From an uncultured Gammaproteobacteria bacterium (lineage in GTDB: Bacteria > Patescibacteriota > Patescibacteriia > S139-126), in the NCBI GenBank assembly GCA_964493305.1, contig CAZBLW010000001.1, forward strand, positions 17,743-81,742: a stretch of 64,000 nucleotides of DNA. Reading direction: 5' to 3'. A program made the position numbers and the translations under genes. Shown here piece after piece: positions 5,170 through 64,000 of the stretch. Below the pieces are notes generated by a model that saw only the letters and a program-made list of their open reading frames with translations, had not been told where the DNA came from and did no database searches. Numbering within the stretch: the first letter of the stretch is position 1; every line of letters begins with the position of its first letter.

Positions 5170-6540
5170 ATGGACTCAAAACAACTTTGGGAGGCAATCT
5201 TAGGCGAACTAGAACTCAGTCTGAGCAAAGCTAATTTCACTACCTGGTTCAAAAATACTTTTATTTTACAAATGAATGATCACGAAATTATTGTGGCCGT
5301 TCCAAACGCTTTCACCAAAGCTTGGTTAGAAAAAAAATATCACAAATATATTACTGATGCTCTAAAAAATGTTAGTGATAAAACCTTTACCAAGGTTAAT
5401 TATGTCGTAGAAACCAAAGAAAAACAAGCTGTTAACCCAAACACTGAAAATGATTTTGGTCTAATAGAAAATCAGCCCGTCTCTACACCAAATAATCACC
5501 CGGTTACCAATAATAAAGTCGGTCTAAATCCAAAATACACATTTGAAAGTTTCGTGGTTGGTAAGGGTAATGAGTTGGCACACGCTGCTTGTTTGGCAGT
5601 AGCAAAAAAACCGGGTGAAGTTTATAACCCGCTTTTTATTTATGGAGGGGTGGGTTTAGGTAAAACCCATTTAATGCAAGCGGTGGGTAATTTTATTTTA
5701 AACGAACAAACCAACAAAAAGGTCCTTTATGTTACCAGTGAAAAATTTACCAATGACTTCATACAACTAGTGCAACAAGGTGAAGCCAAAAAATTCAAAG
5801 AAAAATATCGCAACATTGATGTTTTGTTGGTTGATGATATCCAATTTTTAGCTGGCAAAGAGCAAACTCAAGAAGAATTTTTCCATACCTTCAATACCCT
5901 TCATCAAGAAAACAAACAAATAATTATTTCTTCTGATCGACCACCCAAAGCTATTCCTGCGCTGGAACAAAGGCTTATTTCTCGTTTTGAATGGGGGATG
6001 ATTGTTGATGTAAATGCCCCTGATTTAGAGACCAGAATTGCTATTATTGCTACTAAAATGAAGGAAAAAAACCTATCTTTATCTGATGAAATTGTCCGTA
6101 TAATTGCTACTTCGGTACAAAATAATGTGCGGGAATTGGAAGGAATCCTAAATAAAATTATTGCCTTTCATCAACTTAATAACACCCCACCGACAGAAGA
6201 CAGTGTAAAAAGTATAATTTCCTCCTTGTCCACTAATATTAAAAGAAGTCATATTACTCCTAAAAAATTAATTCAGACTGTTGCTGCTTACTTTGATATT
6301 GATACTGATGGTCTGGTGGGGAATAGCAGAAAAAAAGAATTGGTAGTGCCTAGACAAATAGTCATGTTTTTAATGAGAGAAGAATTAGACGCGTCTTATC
6401 CTAATATCGGACAAGAGTTGGGAGGAAGGGATCATACTACTGCAATGCATGCTTGTAACAAAATTAGTAAGGAAGTTGAAAGTGATGAAAAGATTGCTCG
6501 TGACATCGAAATGATTAAACAGCGCTTATACAATGGTTAA
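5170..6540 (+). CDS. dnaA: chromosomal replication initiator DnaA
   Basis: 456 aa. N-terminal MDSKQLWEAILGELELSLSKANFTTWF, AAA+ Walker A GGVGLGKTHL, Walker B LLVDDIQFL, and a C-terminal DNA-binding domain. Confidence 0.95.
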   Translation: MDSKQLWEAILGELELSLSKANFTTWFKNTFILQMNDHEIIVAVPNAFTKAWLEKKYHKYITDALKNVSDKTFTKVNYVVETKEKQAVNPNTENDFGLIENQPVSTPNNHPVTNNKVGLNPKYTFESFVVGKGNELAHAACLAVAKKPGEVYNPLFIYGGVGLGKTHLMQAVGNFILNEQTNKKVLYVTSEKFTNDFIQLVQQGEAKKFKEKYRNIDVLLVDDIQFLAGKEQTQEEFFHTFNTLHQENKQIIISSDRPPKAIPALEQRLISRFEWGMIVDVNAPDLETRIAIIATKMKEKNLSLSDEIVRIIATSVQNNVRELEGILNKIIAFHQLNNTPPTEDSVKSIISSLSTNIKRSHITPKKLIQTVAAYFDIDTDGLVGNSRKKELVVPRQIVMFLMREELDASYPNIGQELGGRDHTTAMHACNKISKEVESDEKIARDIEMIKQRLYNG

Positions 6541-6775
6541 TTTATTTAAAAGCTGTTAATAAGTTACTGAAAGGTTTGTTATTTTCTTTTGATAATTTTT
6601 AGATAAAAGGTTAACAAAAAAATAAAAAAAATAAAAAAATTTCTTTTCAATATTTTATACACTTTTTTTACTAGGAGAAGCAAAAAATTTTTTTACTTAA
6701 GATTATATAAAATTTTTTATTTTCCACTGTTTCCACAACACCTATTATTATTGCTTTTAAAATTATTTATAATAT

Positions 6776-7879
6776 ATGAAATTCATATGCACTCAAGAAA
6801 ATTTAAAAAGAGGTTTGGGTTTGGTTTCACACCTAGCAGGTAGAAATCAAAATTTACCAATTCTTAATAACGTTTTATTGGAAGCCAAGGGTGGTGGTTT
6901 AATTTTATCAACTACTAATTTAGAAATAGGTATTAAAAGCAATATTAGAGGCAAGGTAGAAAAAGAAGGTTCGCTGACGGTACCTGCGCGTTTATTTTTT
7001 GATTATATTCAAAGTATTAGAGGTGAAAAAATTGAGATCGAAAGCAAAGGAAACAATTTGGAAATAAAAACGGAAAGTTCCCAAACAGTACTCAAAGGGC
7101 TGGATTATTCAGAGTTTCCACTTATTCCAGAAATTGAAAAAAAAATATCAATAACCCTAAACGCAGGTGAACTCAAGGAAGCCCTTAACCTAGTTTTATT
7201 TGCTACAGCAATGGACAACGCCAGGCCAGAAATAAGCGGAGTATTATTTAATTTTGAAAACAATCAACTTACTCTTGCTGCCACTGACAGCTATCGTTTG
7301 GCCGAAAAGAAAATTAATATAAAAAATAGTTTGGAAAAAGAAAAAAAATTAATAATTCCCGCCTTTACCTTACAAGAATTAAGCAGACTAATAAGTGAGG
7401 TTGATAAAAAAGAAAGTTTACAAATGAATATCAATGAAAACCAAGTGAGCTTTGAGTGTGATGCTACCGTTATGATATCTCGTATAACCGAAGGGGAATA
7501 TCCTGATTATAAACAAATAATACCTCAAGACACCAAAACCAAAGTAACCGTGGATAAAAATATTTTACAACAGAACATAAAAGCAGCGAGTTTGTTTTGT
7601 AGACAAGGAATCAATGATCTTAATTTATTTTTTTATGAAAATAAAATTGAAATCAGGGCGCTAAACGACCAGTTGGGTGAAAGTAAAAACGTTGTTGAGG
7701 GCAAAATAGAAGGAGAAAAAAACCAAATTATTTTTAATTATCATTACTTACTAGATGTTTTATCTAGTATGAGTTCTAACGAAGTGGTAATAAAAATAAA
7801 TAATCCCGAAATGCCGGGATTAATAAAGCCTTTAGCCGGAGAGGATTATTTGTATATAATTATGCCAATTAAACAATAA
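6776..7879 (+). CDS. dnaN: DNA polymerase III beta sliding clamp DnaN
   Basis: 367 aa with a three-domain clamp pattern. Directly downstream of dnaA. Confidence 0.9.
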   Translation: MKFICTQENLKRGLGLVSHLAGRNQNLPILNNVLLEAKGGGLILSTTNLEIGIKSNIRGKVEKEGSLTVPARLFFDYIQSIRGEKIEIESKGNNLEIKTESSQTVLKGLDYSEFPLIPEIEKKISITLNAGELKEALNLVLFATAMDNARPEISGVLFNFENNQLTLAATDSYRLAEKKINIKNSLEKEKKLIIPAFTLQELSRLISEVDKKESLQMNINENQVSFECDATVMISRITEGEYPDYKQIIPQDTKTKVTVDKNILQQNIKAASLFCRQGINDLNLFFYENKIEIRALNDQLGESKNVVEGKIEGEKNQIIFNYHYLLDVLSSMSSNEVVIKINNPEMPGLIKPLAGEDYLYIIMPIKQ

Positions 7880-31439: not shown

Positions 31440-31830
31440 TAGCTAGCGGAAATCGAAATGGTATGAATTATTGACTAATTTTTAACCCTGATATATAAAT
31501 AATACACAAAAAGTTCATTGCATTTTGCCAAAAGCATGGAAAGAGGAAAGTACCACTGACACCATTTCACAGGGAGGGTTTAGCTAGACTGAGACTAAAC
31601 CTGAAACAGGCCAGGCCGGGAAGTTCCCTCTGGAGCTGGATAACTGAAAATTTAGTAGGTTATCACGGGCGTTCCCGTTACAGAACTAACATATTTCTTT
31701 TTGAGTATGTGAAAGCGTTCTGAAAATTTTTTCAGAAAAATTAAGGTGGTACCGCGGATAGCGTTTGGAAAAGCGCTCTTCGTCCTTAAGTCAAATCTTG
31801 GATTTGAGGACAAAGAGCGCTTTTTATTTT
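31440..31830 (+). promoter_or_regulatory. T-box riboswitch leader (stem III, F-box, T-box sequence, terminator)
   Basis: T-box core AAGGTGGTACCGCGG at 31743-31757 against the consensus AGGGUGGNACCGCG. F-box CCGTTA at 31675-31680. Stem III TTCTGAAAA/TTTTCAGAA at 31718-31737. A 14-bp terminator stem GCGCTCTTCGTCCT/AGGACAAAGAGCGC plus T-run at 31773-31830 overlaps the antiterminator 3' side. Confidence 0.7.
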
Positions 31831-57485: not shown

Positions 57486-58913
57486 TTATTCGCAACAAGG
57501 TTGACATGATATATCACAGCGTTCACAACCATCACAACGAGTATCGCAAGATTGGCAGTTTTGTTCACATCGTGATTGACAGCGATATTCACAAGTAGTC
57601 TCACAGTTATTATCGCAGCCACCTTGGCAAGTGTAACAATTTTGGCAAGTATTACATTCTTCACAATCCTCACAGCGATAACAATTTTGGCAAGTGTAAC
57701 AGGTGCCACACATTTTCATATCTTGTTCATTTTCTTGATTATTGTCGCAACTGGTGACACAAAAACCATCGCAGTATTCACAGCCTTGGCAAAAATATTC
57801 GCAGTTATTATGAGTGATAGCTTTGTTCGCTTGTGGTTGTGGAGATAGGTGTTGCCCAATCTGTTTGGCAGTCAAAATACGTAGAGCACATTCGATAGGT
57901 ACCGGTGAAGTTGAAAGTTTGTTAGTCAGATAGTTGTCAGCCCAACAGCCGCCGTTGCAAAACTCCAGCGCGGGACAGTTTTGGCAAGTTTCGTTTATTG
58001 ATTTGTCACTGGGTGGGAGAGTTGATTTTTTGATTGCTAAGGTAATTTCTTCTGGAGTAGCTGTCGCTGCATCAATAATCATATTTGCACGATTATTAGT
58101 TAAATGGTGACAATGATACAGTCCACCTTCAATATCTAGAGCCCATAGGCCCCGGCCAGCTCCGCAATAAGTGAATTCACTTTTTTTGCCATGATATTTA
58201 ATCAGGGTGCTAATTTTTTTTCTGCCATAGCGTTCAAAACATTGTTTGATTTGTTCCCCCCAAATATTGAGAGTTTCTTCAGTCCAGTTCATATTGAAAG
58301 CAGGAAAAAGTCCTACGACTTTGAAACCTTGATTAAGTAAAAATTCTGATATTTCCATCAGATAATAAACGCTATCAGGAGTGACAGTGACACGAGCGGT
58401 ATCATTGGGGGTAATATTTAGGGCAAAAGGAATATTTTTAACAACATCAGCAAATGAACCACGACCATTGACATAGGGTCGTTGTTTATCTTGAATATGA
58501 GCCGGTCCATCAATTGAGCAGTGAATGCCCGCTCCTTGTGATATCATCACTTTCATTTTTTGTTCATCTAACGCTATTAAATTTGAAGTCATGCCCCAAC
58601 TGAATTTTATTTTTTGTAAATCAAATGATTGTTTAGCTAGAGTGTTGAGTTGTTGAATTTCATCCCAAGCTAACATAGGCTCGCCCCCCATATAATAGAA
58701 GCTGACTTCTTTTAATGTTGATAGTTGTGCTGCTAAAAAATTTTGTACGGCTTGCCAAACTTTAAATACATTCATTTTGCGTTTACCTTTGTCACCGAAG
58801 TAACAATAAGTACATAGTAGTTGGCAGATATTGGTAGCATCAATCATAAAGTTGATACTTGCTTGATTGTTTTTAGCCAAGGTTTTGGCGGGTTGTTTGA
58901 CCATGGTTTTCAT
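57486..58913 (-). CDS. radical SAM / SPASM-domain enzyme with a fused ~105-aa CxxC-repeat tail
   Basis: CxxxCxxC (CQLLCTYCYF) radical-SAM cluster motif. SPASM CQNCPALEFCNGGCWADNY. The final ~105 residues contain about 38 Cys in a period-3 CxxC pattern (…CGTCYTCQNCYRCEDCEECNTCQNCYTCQGGCDNNCETTCEYRCQSRCEQNCQSCDTRCDGCERCDISCQPCC). Confidence 0.75.
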   Translation of the reverse strand: MKTMVKQPAKTLAKNNQASINFMIDATNICQLLCTYCYFGDKGKRKMNVFKVWQAVQNFLAAQLSTLKEVSFYYMGGEPMLAWDEIQQLNTLAKQSFDLQKIKFSWGMTSNLIALDEQKMKVMISQGAGIHCSIDGPAHIQDKQRPYVNGRGSFADVVKNIPFALNITPNDTARVTVTPDSVYYLMEISEFLLNQGFKVVGLFPAFNMNWTEETLNIWGEQIKQCFERYGRKKISTLIKYHGKKSEFTYCGAGRGLWALDIEGGLYHCHHLTNNRANMIIDAATATPEEITLAIKKSTLPPSDKSINETCQNCPALEFCNGGCWADNYLTNKLSTSPVPIECALRILTAKQIGQHLSPQPQANKAITHNNCEYFCQGCEYCDGFCVTSCDNNQENEQDMKMCGTCYTCQNCYRCEDCEECNTCQNCYTCQGGCDNNCETTCEYRCQSRCEQNCQSCDTRCDGCERCDISCQPCCE

Positions 58914-59990: not shown

Positions 59991-60184
59991 GGTTGATTTT
60001 TATGGTCAAAAATGGTGAAATAAAGACAAGAAGATAATTATTAATTACTAATAACTAATTACGAATCAATTAATTAATTTTTAATTATTTAACTTCTAAT
60101 TCTTTATTCGTAATACGTAATTCTTAATTCCTAATTCTTATCGTAATTCGTAATACGTAATTCTTAATTCTTAAATTTATTAAC

Positions 60185-60934
60185 ATGCGAAAAAATATAT
60201 ATATCATAGTTGTTCTTTTGCTTCTCCTTCTTTTGGGGGTGATAGCTTTTTGGTGGTGGCAGCAAGCAAACAATAAAAAAGTTTCCGATTCAACCAGTCA
60301 AACTGATAGTCAAACAGTCCAAGTGGTTGAACCAGAAGAGTTTACCCCAACAGAAGATATTGTAGTGGATGATGCAACTGAAACAGGTGAGGTGGTGATA
60401 GTAGATGAACCAGTAAATAATGAACCAGTGGTAACAGACAACCAACCGCAACAGAACAATCAAGACAATCAAGCTCCCAACAATCAGCCCCCAGCTCAAG
60501 AACCGCCAAGCAATGTTTGCCAAACTGACACTGACTGCCAAACCAATTTTTATTGTGAATATGCCAAAGGCCAGTGTGGTGGTAGTGGTGAGTGTGTAGC
60601 CAAATCTGAGGCATGTACTTTGCAGTATGCTCCAGTGTGTGGTTGTGATGGTAAAACCTATGGCAATTCTTGTCAGGCTAGAGCCGCGGGAGTGAGTGTC
60701 GAGTATGACGGGCAGTGTCAAAATACTTGTCAGTCAAGTAATGATTGTGACGCCAATGAATATTGTGCCAAAGAAGTAGGACAGTGTAACCAAGTAGGTG
60801 AGTGTAAAACCAAACCCCAAACTTGTACGATTATTTATTCTCCAGTCTGCGGGTGTGATGGTGAAACTTATGGCAACAGTTGTCAAGCAACCCTGGCTGG
60901 TATGACTGTTTCCTCCGCCGGCGCTTGTCAGTAG
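60185..60934 (+). CDS. secreted/membrane-anchored protein with two Kazal-type protease-inhibitor-like domains
   Basis: N-terminal TM/signal, a Pro/Gln/Asn-rich linker, then two copies of C-x-Y-x-PVCGCDG-x-TYGNSCQA (the Kazal signature). Confidence 0.75.
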   Translation: MRKNIYIIVVLLLLLLLGVIAFWWWQQANNKKVSDSTSQTDSQTVQVVEPEEFTPTEDIVVDDATETGEVVIVDEPVNNEPVVTDNQPQQNNQDNQAPNNQPPAQEPPSNVCQTDTDCQTNFYCEYAKGQCGGSGECVAKSEACTLQYAPVCGCDGKTYGNSCQARAAGVSVEYDGQCQNTCQSSNDCDANEYCAKEVGQCNQVGECKTKPQTCTIIYSPVCGCDGETYGNSCQATLAGMTVSSAGACQ

Positions 60935-60993
60935 TTTACCTGTCTAAGATTGTCATTCCGTATTTAGTACGGAATCTAAAAAAAAGAATTTCT

Positions 60994-61046
60994 GAATTTA
61001 TTCCTGAATTAATTCAAGAGCTATTACTTTCAACTTTATAAACTTT
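60994..61046 (+). repeat. copy 1 of a 52-nt direct repeat (leader of the NYN gene)
   Basis: GAATTTATTCCTGAATTAATTCAAGAGCTATTACTTTCAACTTTATAAACTT is identical to 61679-61730, and each copy ends about 20 nt before an ATG. Confidence 0.8.
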
Positions 61047-61065
61047 CTAACTTTAAACTAAATTA

Positions 61066-61567
61066 ATGTCGACAAAAGAAAAAAAATTACGCCTTTATAG
61101 ATAGTCAAAATTTAAATCTTGGCATTCAAAGTTTAGGTTGGAAACTTGATTATAGAAGGTTCAGAAGATATCTAAAAGAAAAGTATCAAGTTGACGTTGC
61201 GTATTTATTTATTGGTTATATGCCTGAGAATCAGGATTTGTATTCGGCTTTGCAGTCATATGGATATGTCTTGATATTTAAACCGACTTTGTCAGATAAA
61301 GATGGAAATGTGAAAGGCAATGTGGATGCAGATTTGGTTTTACAAGCTATGATTGATTATGAAAAATATGATAAAGCATTAATAGTATCTAGCGACGGAG
61401 ATTTTTATTGTTTAGTAAAATATTTATATAAACAAGAGAAATTAAAAGTAGTTATTAGTCCTTATGTAAAAACCTGCTCTATTTTATTGAAAAAAACTGC
61501 TAAAGAAAAAATAATATTTATGGATAATCTGCAAAATAAATTGGCCTATAAAGAAAAACACCGCTAG
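61066..61567 (+). pseudogene. NYN/LabA-like domain protein gene disrupted by a frameshift in an A8 homopolymer (61079-61086)
   Basis: The ATG at 61066 reads MSTKEKKLRLYR*. The +1 frame has no start codon but reads ...YAFIDSQNLNLGIQSLGWKLDYRRFRRYLKEKYQVDVAYLFIGY... into ORF 61220..61567 (NVDADLVLQAMIDY...IVSSDGDFYCLVKYL is the NYN motif). Removing one A restores a single ~166-codon ORF. Confidence 0.65.
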
Positions 61568-61634
61568 GGGACAAAACCCAAAGAGGTGTTCTTCAATGTG
61601 TATTCTGTAGATATTATATATTTTTTTAATAAAT

Positions 61635-61666
61635 TTGTCAATATTAGGGTATATAAATGTTATAAT
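61635..61666 (+). promoter_or_regulatory. near-consensus sigma70 promoter with extended -10 (TTGTCA-17-TGtTATAAT)
   Basis: -35 TTGTCA at 61635-61640, TG at 61658-61659 and -10 TATAAT at 61661-61666. It lies 13 nt upstream of repeat copy 2. Confidence 0.5.
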
Positions 61667-61678
61667 TAAAATATTCAC

Positions 61679-61730
61679 GAATTTATTCCTGAATTAATTC
61701 AAGAGCTATTACTTTCAACTTTATAAACTT
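61679..61730 (+). repeat. copy 2 of the 52-nt direct repeat (leader of the AbrB-like gene)
   Basis: Identical to 60994-61045. Confidence 0.8.
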
Positions 61731-61750
61731 TTAACTTTTAACTAATTACC

Positions 61751-61936
61751 ATGGGCCGTCGTGTACTAAATCAAAATAATATACGCAAACTAACAAAAAC
61801 AGGTGGTGGTAAGTCCATCGCGGTGACTATTCCCATTGAAATGGTGAGGGAATTGAAGTGGCGGGAAAGGCAGAAGGTAGTGGTGACAAAACGAGGAAAG
61901 AGTATTATTATAAAGGATTGGAAAAAAATAATATGA
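61751..61936 (+). CDS. AbrB/MazE/SpoVT-family (swapped-hairpin) DNA-binding protein
   Basis: 61 aa with GGGKSIAVTIPIEMVRELKWRERQKVVVTKRGKSIIIK, the swapped-hairpin barrel pattern. Confidence 0.6.
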   Translation: MGRRVLNQNNIRKLTKTGGGKSIAVTIPIEMVRELKWRERQKVVVTKRGKSIIIKDWKKII

Positions 61937-61993: not shown

Positions 61994-64000
61994 ATGTTAA
62001 ATTTAAAAAATATTGAAATAAAAAAGAATTATGATTCAGATAAGGACGATCTTCTTAAAGATTTTTTTATTCCTGTATTATCAACAGCCGTACTCTACAG
62101 AAGACTTGCGGGATTTTTTTCTTCAGGTATATTTTCCGCAGCTTCTAGGGGCATTAAAGAGCTAATTGATAATAATGGTAAAATGCAGTTGATTATAGGC
62201 GTTCAAGTTAATGAAGAAGACTATTTGATGTTAAAAAAAATAGTTAAAGAATCAAAAGAATTGCCTGAGAAGTACATAACAAATAAAATTGATAATTTAG
62301 AGGAATTTTTAAAAAGTGAACATGTTGAAGCTATGGGATGGATGATTTTAAATAATTTATTAGATATAAAATTTGCAGTTACTAACCGTGGTGGTATTTT
62401 TCATATGAAGGTAGGAATAGTTACTGATAAAAATGGTGATAGTTTATCATTTAGTGGTAGTGATAATGAAACTCCTTCTGGTTGGAAGCATAATGTTGAG
62501 GAGTTTAAAGTGTTTCGTAAATGGATAGATTCAGAAGCTGACTATTTTAATGCCGATGAAGAAAAGTTTAATCGTTTTTGGAATGATAAAGGTAATAATG
62601 TAACTATTTTTGAATTACCAAAAGCAATAAAGGAAAAAATTGTTAAAAGTGTACCAAAAGAACAAAGTGATTTAAAAATATTTAAAAATGAAAATAATTT
62701 AGATAGTAATATATATTTAAATACTCCTGTTGAAATTAAATTAAGACCTCACCAAAAGGAAGCAATAAAAAAATGGGAAAATAATAGTTATAAAGGAATA
62801 TTAGCCATGGCTACTGGTTCAGGAAAAACAAAATCAGCATTATATGCAGTTAAAAATTTATTAAATAATGACAAATCTCTATGTGTAATTATTGCTGTTC
62901 CATTTGGTCATTTAATAAATCAATGGATAACTAATGATATTAGACTTCAATTTCCAGATATTTCTATTATTGAAGCGAGTTCAGAAAATACTAAATGGCG
63001 AAGTCAATTAAAATTGATGTTAGAAGGATATTCAAAAAATATTACAAAAGTTTTTTTTATTGTAACTACATATGCAACCTTATCGTCAGATGATTTTATT
63101 AATATTTTTCTACATAAATATAATAATAACCTAAATTATTTTTTAATTGCTGATGAAGTCCATAATCTTGGAGCAAAAGAAACTCAACGAGCAATGTTAG
63201 TAGAGTATAACTATAGAATGGGATTAACCGCTACACCTAAACGACACTTTGATGATCTAGGAACGGATAAAATAATTAAATATTTTAATAAGATTGTGTA
63301 TGAGTATGAATTAAAAGACGCAATAAGAGATGGTTATCTCGTAAAGTATAAATATTATCCTATTATTATTGAGATGACAGATGAAGAATATGATGAGTAT
63401 AATAATATATCACAAAAGATAAGTAAGCGGGCGGCTATATTAAATTTACGAAAATCAGATATATTAATAAATAATGATTTAAGTTTACAAATTTTATTAC
63501 AAAAAAGAAGTAAAATAATAAAGGAGTCATCTGCAAAAATTCCAATATTAGATAAGACTTTAAAAGAAATGAAAAAAAAGGGATCAATCGATCATTTGTT
63601 AATTTATTGTGATAATATTAAACAATTAGAAAAAGTACAAGTAATACTATATAATGAAGGTATAATTAGTCATCAGTTTACGAAAGAGGAAAGTCTAAAA
63701 GAAAGAAGAAATATACTTGATCATTTTATACAAGGTAATTATAAGTGTTTGGTAGCTATTAAATGTCTTGATGAAGGTGTTGACGTACCTTCTATAAAAA
63801 CAGCAATTATTATAGCTAGTACAACCAATCCTCGGGAGTATATACAAAGAAGAGGGAGAGTATTAAGAAAAGAGCAAAATAAAGAAAATGCCATAATATA
63901 CGATTTTATAGTAATACCTAAGCTTGCAAGAAGTAGTGAAATAGATCAATATGAAAAACAGATATTACGAAAAGAATTAACTAGAGTATTAGATTTTATA
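61994..64000 (+). CDS. PLD-family (HKD) nuclease domain fused to an SF2 DEAH/ResIII-type helicase; partial, continues beyond window end
   Basis: Frame from the ATG at 61994 (MLNLKNIEIKK...). The ATG at 62031 is out of frame and hits a stop. HKD motif IFHMKVGIVTD. Helicase motif I AMATGSGKT, II IADEVHNL, III GLTATP, VI QRRGRVLR. Confidence 0.7.
   Translation, partial: MLNLKNIEIKKNYDSDKDDLLKDFFIPVLSTAVLYRRLAGFFSSGIFSAASRGIKELIDNNGKMQLIIGVQVNEEDYLMLKKIVKESKELPEKYITNKIDNLEEFLKSEHVEAMGWMILNNLLDIKFAVTNRGGIFHMKVGIVTDKNGDSLSFSGSDNETPSGWKHNVEEFKVFRKWIDSEADYFNADEEKFNRFWNDKGNNVTIFELPKAIKEKIVKSVPKEQSDLKIFKNENNLDSNIYLNTPVEIKLRPHQKEAIKKWENNSYKGILAMATGSGKTKSALYAVKNLLNNDKSLCVIIAVPFGHLINQWITNDIRLQFPDISIIEASSENTKWRSQLKLMLEGYSKNITKVFFIVTTYATLSSDDFINIFLHKYNNNLNYFLIADEVHNLGAKETQRAMLVEYNYRMGLTATPKRHFDDLGTDKIIKYFNKIVYEYELKDAIRDGYLVKYKYYPIIIEMTDEEYDEYNNISQKISKRAAILNLRKSDILINNDLSLQILLQKRSKIIKESSAKIPILDKTLKEMKKKGSIDHLLIYCDNIKQLEKVQVILYNEGIISHQFTKEESLKERRNILDHFIQGNYKCLVAIKCLDEGVDVPSIKTAIIIASTTNPREYIQRRGRVLRKEQNKENAIIYDFIVIPKLARSSEIDQYEKQILRKELTRVLDFI

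What the first reader, a model, noticed from the sequence alone, without database searches (positions are those of the whole stretch)
60994..61750. Identical 52-nt leader duplicated in front of two different genes, one copy behind a near-consensus extended -10 promoter
GAATTTATTCCTGAATTAATTCAAGAGCTATTACTTTCAACTTTATAAACTT occurs at 60994-61045 and 61679-61730. Each copy ends about 20 nt before an ATG (the NYN gene and the AbrB-like gene), and the downstream ~20 nt are also similar. Copy 2 sits 13 nt after a TTGTCA-17-TGtTATAAT promoter, so the repeat is most likely a shared 5' UTR. This suggests a common post-transcriptional control element (sRNA or protein binding site) or a duplicated cassette boundary in a defence island.
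Basis: seen in the sequence. Interest (0 to 1): 0.5.

Follow-up and report, generated by a model that had tools for sequence, protein, structure and literature searches.

The report
Duplicated repressor-binding leader flanking NYN cassette
An exact 53-base repeat sits in front of two neighbouring genes at the edge of a defence island, and it most likely carries the DNA binding sites of the small AbrB-type regulator encoded right behind it, so that one regulator would control itself, the defence genes downstream and an inserted NYN nuclease gene.

Summary
The repeat is real. It is 53 nt exact (60994-61046 and 61679-61731), or 68 nt at 97%. Each copy ends 20 nt before an ATG. It is not a dispersed element: there are two copies in the window, the same two in one related MAG, and no true copy in the viral, genome or metagenome scans.

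Its 5' half is a 12-bp-periodic array (GAATTTATTC-CT-GAATTAATTC) with an 18-bp near-palindrome. Arrays of this build lie upstream of the 59-aa AbrB/MazE-fold gene in all nine lineages examined, several with the same CTGAATTAATTCAG core. The best reading is therefore the operator of the AbrB-like protein encoded behind copy 2.

Copy 1 is the ancestral operator position. The NYN cassette lies between the copies, and a relative carries a NERD gene there instead. The leader RNA is unstructured and matches no Rfam family, so a DNA-level operator is favoured over an RNA element.

It is the complement of a consensus promoter on the minus strand, conserved behind NYN genes across CPR bacteria.

Verdict: a new member of a known kind (autoregulated AbrB-type repressor plus operator, duplicated onto a second gene). 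Interest is moderate.

The parts
60994..61046 (+). Repeat copy 1 (53 nt exact), ending 20 nt before the NYN ATG
61679..61731 (+). Repeat copy 2 (53 nt exact), ending 20 nt before the ATG of the AbrB-like gene and starting 12 nt after TGtTATAAT
60981..61019 (.). Operator array at copy 1: partial unit GAATTTCT, then GAATTTATTC-CT-GAATTAATTC. Includes the 18-bp near-palindrome TCCTGAATT|AATTCAAGA (61002-61019). Positions 60981-61012 are 97% identical to the single array upstream of the AbrB gene in L003/L004, so this is the ancestral position.
61679..61704 (.). Operator array at copy 2: two 12-bp-spaced units, with the palindrome at 61687-61704. It lies about +6 to +32 relative to the start site predicted from TGtTATAAT.
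61047..61065 (+). Diverged tail of copy 1 (TCTAACTTTAAACTAAATTA). Its counterpart at copy 2 is 61732-61750. The tails show 5 differences in 21 positions, against 0 in 53 in the core.
61066..61567 (+). NYN (LabA-like) nuclease gene, frameshifted in the A8 run 61079-61086. The restored protein is 166 aa. It is 100% identical to the L006 protein and about 80% identical to thousands of Patescibacteria proteins.
61553..61594 (.). Bidirectional terminator / conserved 3' stem-loop of the NYN cassette, with an inner GGGACAAAACCC.
61613..61641 (-). Consensus promoter on the minus strand, TTGACA-17-TATAAT, pointing into the 3' end of NYN.
61658..61666 (+). Extended -10 promoter TGtTATAAT for the AbrB-like gene. 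There is no -35 at 16-18 nt.
61751..61936 (+). 61-aa AbrB/MazE-fold DNA-binding protein, the proposed repressor.
61994..64000 (+). PbeA (PLD-helicase), the first gene of the variable defence cargo. It runs off the end of the window.
60955..60975 (+). Weak hairpin after the Kazal-domain gene, just upstream of copy 1. No recognisable promoter lies in front of copy 1.

Best explanation
The repeat is a duplicated regulatory leader. Its 5' half (about 30 nt) is the operator of the small AbrB/MazE-fold protein encoded directly behind copy 2. The operator consists of two to three 12-bp-spaced CTGAATT-type units, including an 18-bp near-palindrome.

At copy 2 the operator lies just downstream of a strong extended -10 promoter. 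There the protein would autorepress its own gene and probably the defence genes behind it (PbeA and onward), in the way a restriction-modification controller protein or a TA antitoxin does.

Copy 1 sits at the ancestral operator position. A roughly 630-nt NYN-nuclease cassette, together with a new promoter, came to lie between the old leader and the AbrB gene, and the leader was duplicated in the process. As a result NYN now sits behind the same binding sites and would be co-regulated with the regulator.

What is shown: the repeat itself, the fold of the protein, the operator-like arrays upstream of homologues in nine lineages, and the presence/absence polymorphism of the cassette. What is inferred: binding, repression, co-regulation of NYN, and the route of the duplication.
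For: Upstream arrays. All nine AbrB-homologue lineages examined have an array of 2-4 palindromic 12-mers at 12-bp periodicity within 150 nt upstream of the gene. L097 and L100 (68% aa identity) carry the perfect palindrome CTGAATTAATTCAG 12-16 nt before the ATG. The window has CTGAATTAATTCAaG. L102, L113 and L103 have GTAATTAATTAC-type units. L112 and L005 have AACTCATGAGTT-type units. The periodicity-plus-palindrome score reaches or exceeds nearly all shuffles in every locus: 0/500 in six loci and at most 7/500 in the others.

Selective conservation. The 32 nt at 60981-61012 are 97% identical in L003/L004. The flanking Kazal and AbrB genes there are only 76-83% identical and the rest of the spacer is unrelated.

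The protein. It hits Pfam PF04014 above threshold. The AF2 model (pLDDT 84) best matches MazE, the AbrB N-domain, SpoVT and VapB. All 9 substitutions against L006 are synonymous.

Position. The operator sits right after the -10 element, as in L100, where TAAAAT is followed by the array.

Core versus tail. The core has 0/53 differences and the tail 5/21, and both are already fixed in the relative. This indicates selection or gene conversion acting on the core.

Against an RNA role. The leader RNA is unstructured and matches no Rfam family.
Against: There are no binding or transcript data. No promoter is recognisable upstream of copy 1, so NYN transcription must come from read-through or from a weak promoter inside the repeat (TATAAA lies 23 nt before each ATG). 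In the latter case the repeat would be promoter plus operator rather than a 5' UTR.

Only about 30 of the 53 identical nt are explained by the operator. The two genomes that carry the duplication are 99.8% identical over this segment, so they count as a single observation. NYN loci elsewhere lack AbrB-type arrays. The NYN copy in the window is frameshifted. Residue-to-operator covariation is only hinted at, by a one-residue loop deletion in the GTAAT-type proteins.
Confidence: 0.6

Rival explanations
1. The repeat is a neutral scar of cassette insertion. It would be the duplicated junction left when the NYN cassette was recombined into the AbrB leader, by a Campbell-type or unequal homologous exchange. 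Copy 2 still serves the AbrB gene, but copy 1 has no regulatory meaning for NYN.
For: The repeats exactly bracket a present/absent cassette: NYN in the window and L006, NERD in L003. NYN is a promiscuous gene, about 80% identical all over Patescibacteria, found in unrelated contexts and with a conserved 3' flank. Duplicated promoter regions flank NYN in two other lineages: L105 (97% over 35 nt) and L102. The 60800-61790 segment was recently exchanged between genomes of about 80% ANI. NYN is frameshifted in the window.
Against: There are 0/53 differences in the core against 5/21 in the tail, which is not expected for a neutral duplicate of a single age. Copy 1 keeps the fuller, ancestral operator array. 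This explanation is largely compatible with the best one as an account of origin; it differs only on present function.
Confidence: 0.22
2. The repeat acts at the RNA level. It would be a shared 5' UTR targeted by an sRNA or an RNA-binding protein, or an unstructured A/U-rich translation enhancer for mRNAs without a Shine-Dalgarno sequence.
For: Copy 2 starts 12 nt after a strong -10 element, so it is probably transcribed. Most genes in the window lack a Shine-Dalgarno sequence. The 3' part holds three AACTTT motifs and is unstructured, which suits ribosome loading.
Against: There is no stable fold (z +1.46) and no Rfam match. No other copies exist in the related MAG or in the large collections. 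The part conserved across lineages is a DNA-type palindromic, periodic array, and the 3' part is not conserved even in the closest relative without NYN. No promoter lies upstream of copy 1.
Confidence: 0.08
3. The palindrome is a site-specific recombination site (att/dif/attC-like), and cassettes are swapped at it by a recombinase.
For: There are direct repeats around a single-gene cassette of about 0.7 kb. Homology with L003 ends within 2 nt of the palindrome centre. The cargo on both sides is variable.
Against: No recombinase was seen near the locus in the window, L003 or L006. There is no attC-like core. The same arrays occur upstream of AbrB homologues in non-mobile contexts, for example between cca and nusA or in front of radA. 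Recombination tracts between the window and L006 end inside the Kazal and AbrB genes, as expected for homologous exchange.
Confidence: 0.07

Closest known systems
Autoregulated SpoVT/AbrB-fold antitoxins and regulators (MazE, VapB, AbrB) with palindromic operators in their own promoters
   Same: Same fold: Pfam PF04014, and the AF2 model best matches MazE 1ub4, AbrB-N 2k1n, SpoVT 2w1t and VapB2-DNA 3zvk. The gene is small and preceded by palindromic or repeated sites at its promoter. It neighbours PIN-like/NYN, NERD or UPF0102 nuclease genes in several lineages.
   Different: At 59-61 aa the protein has no C-terminal toxin-binding tail; instead it has a basic N-terminal arm. In the window the nuclease gene is upstream, 184 nt away, behind its own copy of the leader, rather than in a bicistronic operon. 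Many homologues sit in front of non-toxin genes (HsdM, PbeA, RadA, NUDIX). No sequence-level match to any solved structure was found.
Controller (C) proteins of restriction-modification systems and their C-boxes
   Same: A small autoregulatory DNA-binding gene sits at the head of a restriction/defence operon, with tandem palindromic operators immediately upstream. This holds in front of type I RM (L006), type IIG/I RM (L103, L113 region) and Pbe (window).
   Different: C proteins are Xre-type helix-turn-helix proteins, whereas this one has the AbrB swapped-hairpin fold. Co-transcription with the defence genes is not shown. The family also occurs away from RM genes.
Type I toxin-antitoxin loci with a convergent, 3'-overlapping antisense RNA (txpA/RatA, bsrG/SR4 type; from general knowledge)
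   Same: Behind NYN lies a conserved convergent consensus promoter plus a bidirectional terminator. Together they predict an antisense RNA of about 60 nt over the stop codon and 3' UTR.
   Different: The 'toxin' would be a 166-aa NYN nuclease rather than a small membrane peptide. Neither the RNA nor any toxicity has been demonstrated. This feature concerns the cassette between the repeats, not the repeat itself.
Integron gene cassettes / attC sites
   Same: A single-ORF unit of about 0.7 kb is bracketed by repeats that contain an imperfect palindrome, in a region of variable gene content.
   Different: No integrase, no GTTRRRY core and no attC-type bipartite structure are present. Only two copies exist, and their sequence is the operator type of the neighbouring regulator.

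Membership tests
SpoVT/AbrB (MazE/VapB/AbrB) DNA-binding domain family | Sequence match to the SpoVT-AbrB/MazE domain profile above the curated threshold | tested here: met
   PF04014 scores 27.5 bits against a cutoff of 24.7, E 3e-6, over residues 19-55. Many homologues carry precomputed PF04014 hits.
SpoVT/AbrB (MazE/VapB/AbrB) DNA-binding domain family | Swapped-hairpin beta fold | tested here: met
   The AF2 model has pLDDT 84.1 and the order beta-beta-alpha-beta-beta. The top Foldseek hits are all MazE, AbrB-N, SpoVT or VapB; the best is 1ub4_C with TM 0.67 and rmsd 1.6 over 49 columns. This is model-level evidence, and the E-values are weak because the domain is so small.
SpoVT/AbrB (MazE/VapB/AbrB) DNA-binding domain family | Binds DNA as a dimer or tetramer at repeated or palindromic sites | not testable with these tools
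   Only indirect evidence: 12-bp-periodic palindromic arrays lie upstream of the gene in all nine lineages examined.
Type II toxin-antitoxin module (VapBC/MazEF type) | The antitoxin has a toxin-neutralising extension beside the DNA-binding domain | tested here: not met
   The family is 57-61 aa and ends right after the last beta-strand (DWKK). The only extra segment is a 13-aa basic N-terminal arm.
Type II toxin-antitoxin module (VapBC/MazEF type) | Two adjacent genes in one operon, with tight spacing | tested here: not met
   In the window NYN is upstream, is separated by 184 nt containing a terminator and two promoters, and has its own leader copy. L097 (AbrB to NERD/UPF0102, 17-nt gap) and L102 (AbrB to NYN, about 100 nt) look more TA-like.
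Type II toxin-antitoxin module (VapBC/MazEF type) | Toxicity of the partner and its neutralisation by the antitoxin | not testable with these tools
R-M controller (C) protein / C-box circuit | Helix-turn-helix (Xre-type) C protein | tested here: not met
   The fold is AbrB/MazE-like, not HTH.
R-M controller (C) protein / C-box circuit | Tandem palindromic operators upstream of the regulator gene, which precedes the restriction/defence genes | tested here: met
   Arrays lie upstream of the gene. The gene directly precedes HsdM (L006), PbeA (window), SLFN_AlbA_2 (L005) and RM-containing islands (L102, L103). Co-transcription was not tested.
Structured cis-regulatory RNA leader (riboswitch, T-box, sRNA-target family) | Conserved secondary structure or a match to a curated RNA family | tested here: not met
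   No Rfam hit at gathering threshold or at E<=1 in 60900-61800, apart from a chance SAM-II match inside NYN. MFE is -2.7 kcal/mol, and 193 of 200 shuffles fold at least as well.
Dispersed repeat / MITE / shared leader family | Multiple copies in the genome or in related genomes | tested here: not met
   There are 2 copies in the window at up to 3 mismatches. The 21-mer core occurs only at the same two places in one related MAG, plus one chance hit in a coding sequence among 185,579 species genomes. There are 0 hits in viral contigs. The 90 metagenome hits to a 19-mer are all chance matches that do not extend, many lying in coding sequence where the 19-mer reads EFIPEL.
Integron cassette / attC | An integrase nearby and an attC core (GTTRRRY) with bipartite inverted repeats | tested here: not met
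   No such core is present on either strand of the repeat (sequence). No integrase was found among the neighbouring genes of the window, L003 or L006.

The most novel reading that the evidence does not exclude
The 59-aa AbrB-like gene and its operator would form a conserved 'head' of swappable defence cargo in CPR bacteria, acting as a fold-unrelated analogue of R-M controller proteins. The NYN gene between the repeats would be a widespread mobile, promoter-less cassette made of the ORF, a conserved 3' stem-loop and a consensus antisense promoter. This cassette would insert behind host promoters or leaders and duplicate them, as seen independently in the window, L105 and L102, and would be kept in check by a cis-antisense RNA. 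That would make it a new nuclease-type, type-I-like addiction or defence module.
Probability: 0.2. Interest if true: 0.7.

Novelty: new member of a known kind. Interest (0 to 1): 0.42.

Why it matters
Gene regulation in CPR/Patescibacteria is almost unstudied. This locus offers a small regulator family (at least 257 detected homologues) with a readable operator code: three site types seen so far, always at 12-bp periodicity. The regulator is often placed at the head of restriction, CBASS, Pbe or CRISPR-adjacent genes. That gives a directly testable handle on how these organisms control defence genes, using EMSA and reporters in a surrogate host.

The locus also shows how a regulon can grow: duplicating a leader captured a horizontally mobile nuclease gene. 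In addition it marks a recombination-prone island boundary, where a 1-kb tract is 99.8% identical between genomes that are about 80% identical elsewhere.

Tried and rejected
- Search for more copies. The 21-mer core and the 24-mer 3' part gave 0 hits in viral contigs. The genome scan found only the orthologous pair in one MAG and one chance hit in a Hungatella coding sequence. The 19-mer metagenome scan gave 90 hits, all chance matches that did not extend (many in coding sequence reading EFIPEL). L089 (AT-rich, unrelated) and L049 (an ImmA-like coding sequence) were inspected and rejected.
- RNA structure and known RNA families: nothing found.
- The leader as the tail of an ORF (it reads EFIPELIQELLLSTL*). 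Rejected: the frame is closed just upstream of copy 2, and at copy 1 it overlaps the Kazal gene.
- The shared TTGTCA 39 nt upstream of both copies as evidence for a longer duplication. Rejected: the intervening 38 nt are about 32% identical, which is random, and at copy 2 the motif belongs to the antisense promoter.
- Misassembly. Rejected because an independent assembly has the same architecture.
- AbrB and NYN relatives in viral contigs. None were found for AbrB. One distant NYN (58% identity) appeared in a 'viral' contig, and the NYN 3' flank pattern gave 0 hits.
- Sequence search of solved structures with the family profile: no significant hit. NCBIfam: no meaningful hit.
- Literature searches for AbrB in Patescibacteria, and for NYN with TA or antisense RNA, found nothing on this family.
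- A promoter upstream of copy 1: none found by scan or by eye.
Full report
**1. Observation**

Identity extends to 53 nt. With one indel the repeat is 68 nt at 97%, and the repeat finder reports 74 nt at 88%. The copies are 685 nt apart.

Each copy ends 20 nt before an ATG. Copy 1 precedes a NYN-domain gene (Pfam PF01936, E 2.8e-14). Copy 2 precedes a 61-aa gene with a SpoVT-AbrB/MazE domain (PF04014, 27.5 bits against a cutoff of 24.7). Next comes PbeA (PADLOC E 4e-227), the first gene of a Pbe-type defence system. That family was described as a phosphorothioation-based antiviral system in PMC6459918.

Two details of the finding need correction.

- The TTGTCA is 20 nt, not 17, from the TATAAT hexamer. 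The plus-strand signal is therefore an extended -10 (TGtTATAAT, 61658-61666) without a properly spaced -35, and the scan did not call it.
- The NYN reading frame is broken in an A8 run (61079-61086). With A7 it reads MSTKEKNYAFIDSQNL....

**2. The repeat is not a dispersed family**

- There are only two copies in the window, even at 3 mismatches or with blastn-short.
- A 21-mer core and a 24-mer from the 3' part have no match in the viral collection.
- In one genome per 185,579 species, the 21-mer occurs only in one MAG contig (CAZINS010000009.1) and once by chance inside a Hungatella coding sequence. In the MAG there are two copies 684 nt apart in the same architecture.
- A 19-mer scan of the metagenome collection gave 90 hits. 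None extends beyond the 19-mer; many lie in coding sequence, where the 19-mer reads EFIPEL.
- The leader RNA is essentially unstructured (MFE -2.7 kcal/mol; 193 of 200 shuffles fold at least as well). No Rfam family matches.

Together these results speak against a shared RNA element.

**3. What relatives show**

The organism looks like a member of the CPR/Patescibacteria. GC is about 35%, most genes lack a Shine-Dalgarno sequence, and the best hits of both genes are from Patescibacteria. The taxon is inferred, not determined.

The related MAG (L002/L006) has Kazal gene, leader, NYN (intact, A7), promoter, leader, AbrB gene, followed by a type I R-M system instead of Pbe. Identity to the window varies along the region:

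| Segment | Identity to window |
|---|---|
| Core flanking genes | about 80% |
| msrBA | about 90% |
| Kazal gene | about 97% |
| 60800-61790 | 99.8% (two substitutions, two homopolymer indels) |
| 3' half of the AbrB gene | about 93% (nine substitutions, all synonymous) |
| Beyond 61932 | no homology |

So a tract of about 1 kb that holds both repeat copies was exchanged recently between different species. The AbrB gene is the right-hand anchor, beyond which the cargo varies.

A third lineage (L003/L004; AbrB-like protein 86% identical) has Kazal gene, NERD gene, one array, AbrB gene, followed by an HATPase/methylase/ResIII system. Its single array, AAAAAGAATTCCTGAATTTATTCCTGAATTAA, is 97% identical to window 60981-61012. 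That is copy 1 together with its left flank. The rest of the spacer is unrelated, and the flanking genes are 76-83% identical.

Hence copy 1 sits at the ancestral position of the regulatory region of the AbrB gene. The NYN cassette plus the TGtTATAAT promoter lies between that region and the gene, and copy 2 is the derived duplicate.

**4. The 5' half is the operator type of the AbrB-like family**

The family has at least 257 detected members of 57-61 aa, mostly from CPR bacteria. I read the region upstream of the gene in nine independent lineages:

| Locus | Array upstream of the AbrB-like gene |
|---|---|
| Window / L006 | GAATTTATTC-CT-GAATTAATTC-AAG (18-bp near-palindrome TCCTGAATT\|AATTCAAGA) |
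| L003 | CCTGAATTTATT CCTGAATTAACT ACTGAATAAAAT |
| L097 | ACTGAATTAATT ACTGAATTAATT CAGTAATTAAAT, 2 nt before the ATG |
| L100 | TAAAAT-att-ACTGAATTAATT CAGTAATTAAAT |
| L102 and L113 | GTAATTAATTAC GTAATTAAATAA GTAATT... |
| L103 | GTAATAGATTAC GTAATACATTAC |
| L112 | AACTCAGTATTT AACTCATGAGTT AACTCAGGAGAT |
| L005 | AACTCTAGAGCT GGCTCTAGAGTT |

I combined 12-nt periodicity and palindromy into one score. No shuffle of 500 reached it in six loci, and at most 7 of 500 did in the other three. The perfect palindrome CTGAATTAATTCAG is shared by lineages whose proteins are only 68% identical to the window's.

The AlphaFold model (pLDDT 84) has the beta-beta-alpha-beta-beta order. Its best structural matches are MazE, the AbrB N-domain, SpoVT and DNA-bound VapB. 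The proteins with GTAAT-type sites share a one-residue deletion in the G-GGKS loop, which hints at covariation.

I conclude that the array is the protein's own operator. This is an inference from comparative data, with confidence of about 0.75 for copy 2. In the window and in L100 the array lies just after the -10 element, which is the position of a repressor roadblock.

**5. What the duplication does**

With the same array in front of it, NYN would be repressed together with the regulator and, probably, the defence genes behind it.

In favour of function rather than a mere scar, the 53-nt core has no difference between the copies, while the 21-nt tails up to the ATGs have five. If all 74 nt were duplicated at once and evolved neutrally, the chance that all five differences fall in the tail is about 0.001 (my calculation). 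The same state is fixed in the relative.

Several points speak against a function, or remain open:

- No promoter is recognisable upstream of copy 1.
- Only about 30 of the 53 nt are explained by the operator.
- The remaining part contains a TATAAA 23 nt before each ATG. That distance is typical for -10 boxes in this genome, so the repeat may be promoter plus operator rather than a pure 5' UTR.
- The NYN copy in the window is frameshifted. This may be a homopolymer error, because a second A-run is also one base longer than in L006.

**6. Relation to toxin-antitoxin and controller systems**

The AbrB-like gene is repeatedly adjacent to small nuclease-type genes:

- NYN (window, L006, L102);
- NERD (L003);
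- NERD/UPF0102 (L097);
- SLFN_AlbA_2 (L005);
- a truncated AbrB-like remnant lies 1.1 kb from NYN in L107.

This resembles VapB (AbrB fold) paired with VapC (PIN), since NYN is PIN-like. However, the protein has no toxin-binding tail, and the window's gene order and spacing are not those of a type II operon. Other homologues precede hsdM, pbeA, radA or a NUDIX gene, or sit beside cas1.

It therefore works like an autoregulated antitoxin or an R-M controller protein, but it fails defining features of both families. See the membership table.

**7. The cassette between the repeats (noticed while following the finding)**

The NYN protein is about 80% identical to thousands of Patescibacteria proteins, yet it sits in unrelated neighbourhoods. 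Its 3' flank is conserved at the DNA level in four independent lineages. That flank holds:

- a bidirectional terminator (61553-61594; -20.8 kcal/mol, z -3.4 on the minus strand) with an inner GGGACRAAACCC, which is kept even in a 58%-identical homologue whose outer stem is different;
- a minus-strand consensus promoter at a fixed distance, its -10 ending 45-46 nt past the stop codon. It scores 12/12, 11/12, 12/12 and 10/12 in the four lineages, and 12/12 at 56 nt in the 46%-identical L102.

This predicts an antisense RNA of about 60 nt over the NYN stop codon.

In two other lineages the sequence in front of NYN is a copy of the neighbour's promoter. In L105, 35 nt are 97% identical in front of NYN and in front of a PLD-helicase gene. 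L102 has three related units. Duplication of the host's regulatory region around NYN therefore seems recurrent. The mechanism is unknown.

**8. Verdict**

The best explanation is a duplicated operator-containing leader of an AbrB-type autoregulator that brings an inserted NYN nuclease gene under the same control (confidence 0.6). The main rival is that copy 1 is only a recombination scar (0.22). An RNA-level element (0.08) and a site-specific recombination site (0.07) are less likely.

This is a new member of a known kind of circuit. Interest is moderate. It rises if the AbrB-headed island boundary and the antisense-controlled, promoter-duplicating NYN cassette prove to be general.

Noticed in passing
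window 61079-61086 (also 60978-60985): The NYN gene is frameshifted by an A8 run; the related MAG has A7 and an intact 166-aa ORF. A second A-run upstream of copy 1 is also one base longer than in the relative. This is either a homopolymer sequencing error or phase variation.
   Followed up: partly
window 61553-61641 (minus strand); L105 3546-3575, L107 3546-3573, L110 3547-3575, L102 4829-4856: A perfect TTGACA-17-TATAAT promoter on the minus strand points into the 3' end of NYN. It is conserved at a fixed distance behind NYN genes in independent CPR lineages, and with the bidirectional terminator it predicts an antisense RNA of about 60 nt over the NYN stop codon.
   Followed up: partly
window 61553-61594; L116 1980-2025: The NYN 3' stem-loop keeps an inner GGGACRAAACCC hairpin even where the outer stem has a completely different sequence (in a 58%-identical homologue). 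It may be a conserved RNA element rather than just a terminator.
   Followed up: partly
L105 2935-2975 and 3923-3963; L102 3836-3874, 4234-4272, 4890-4928: In two other Patescibacteria loci the promoter in front of NYN is a near-copy of the promoter of the neighbouring defence gene (97% over 35 nt in L105). Duplication of regulatory regions around NYN recurs with unrelated sequences.
   Followed up: partly
window 60800-61790 versus L006 9050-10045: This tract of about 1 kb is 99.8% identical between two genomes whose core genes are about 80% identical. The cargo to the right of the AbrB gene differs in every relative: Pbe, type I RM, or an HATPase/methylase/ResIII system. The locus is a recombination-prone island boundary.
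   Followed up: yes
window 60036-60180: Tandem 7-nt repeats (TAATTCG/TAATACG/TAATTCT) with inverted copies lie upstream of the Kazal-domain gene. They are partly shared, in either orientation, with L003 (3334-3396 and 5936-5989).
   Followed up: no
window 57486-58913 (minus strand): A radical-SAM gene with a long Cys-rich C-terminal tail (CxxC repeats) is present in the window but absent from the otherwise syntenic relative L006.
   Followed up: no
L107 4690-4825: A truncated remnant of an AbrB-like gene (PIDIIRKWRWREKQKV...DWKPKS) lies between an NYN-linked 338-aa gene and an NmeDI-type restriction enzyme gene. It was not called as a gene.
   Followed up: partly
L102 3925-3985: A GC-rich long hairpin (CAGGTGTCGGGTATC...GATACCTGACACC) lies between the operator array and the AbrB start codon. 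It may be a structured leader specific to that lineage.
   Followed up: no
L100 2960-2990: A second array of the other site type (GTAATAAATTAC GTAATTAATTAC GTAATTC) lies directly in front of a small ORF about 1 kb upstream of the AbrB-like gene, which itself has CTGAATT-type sites.
   Followed up: no
window 5170-7879 and 31528-31790: dnaA and dnaN (judged by eye from the N-terminal sequences; probable replication origin region) and a T-box leader (110 bits) are present in the window.
   Followed up: no
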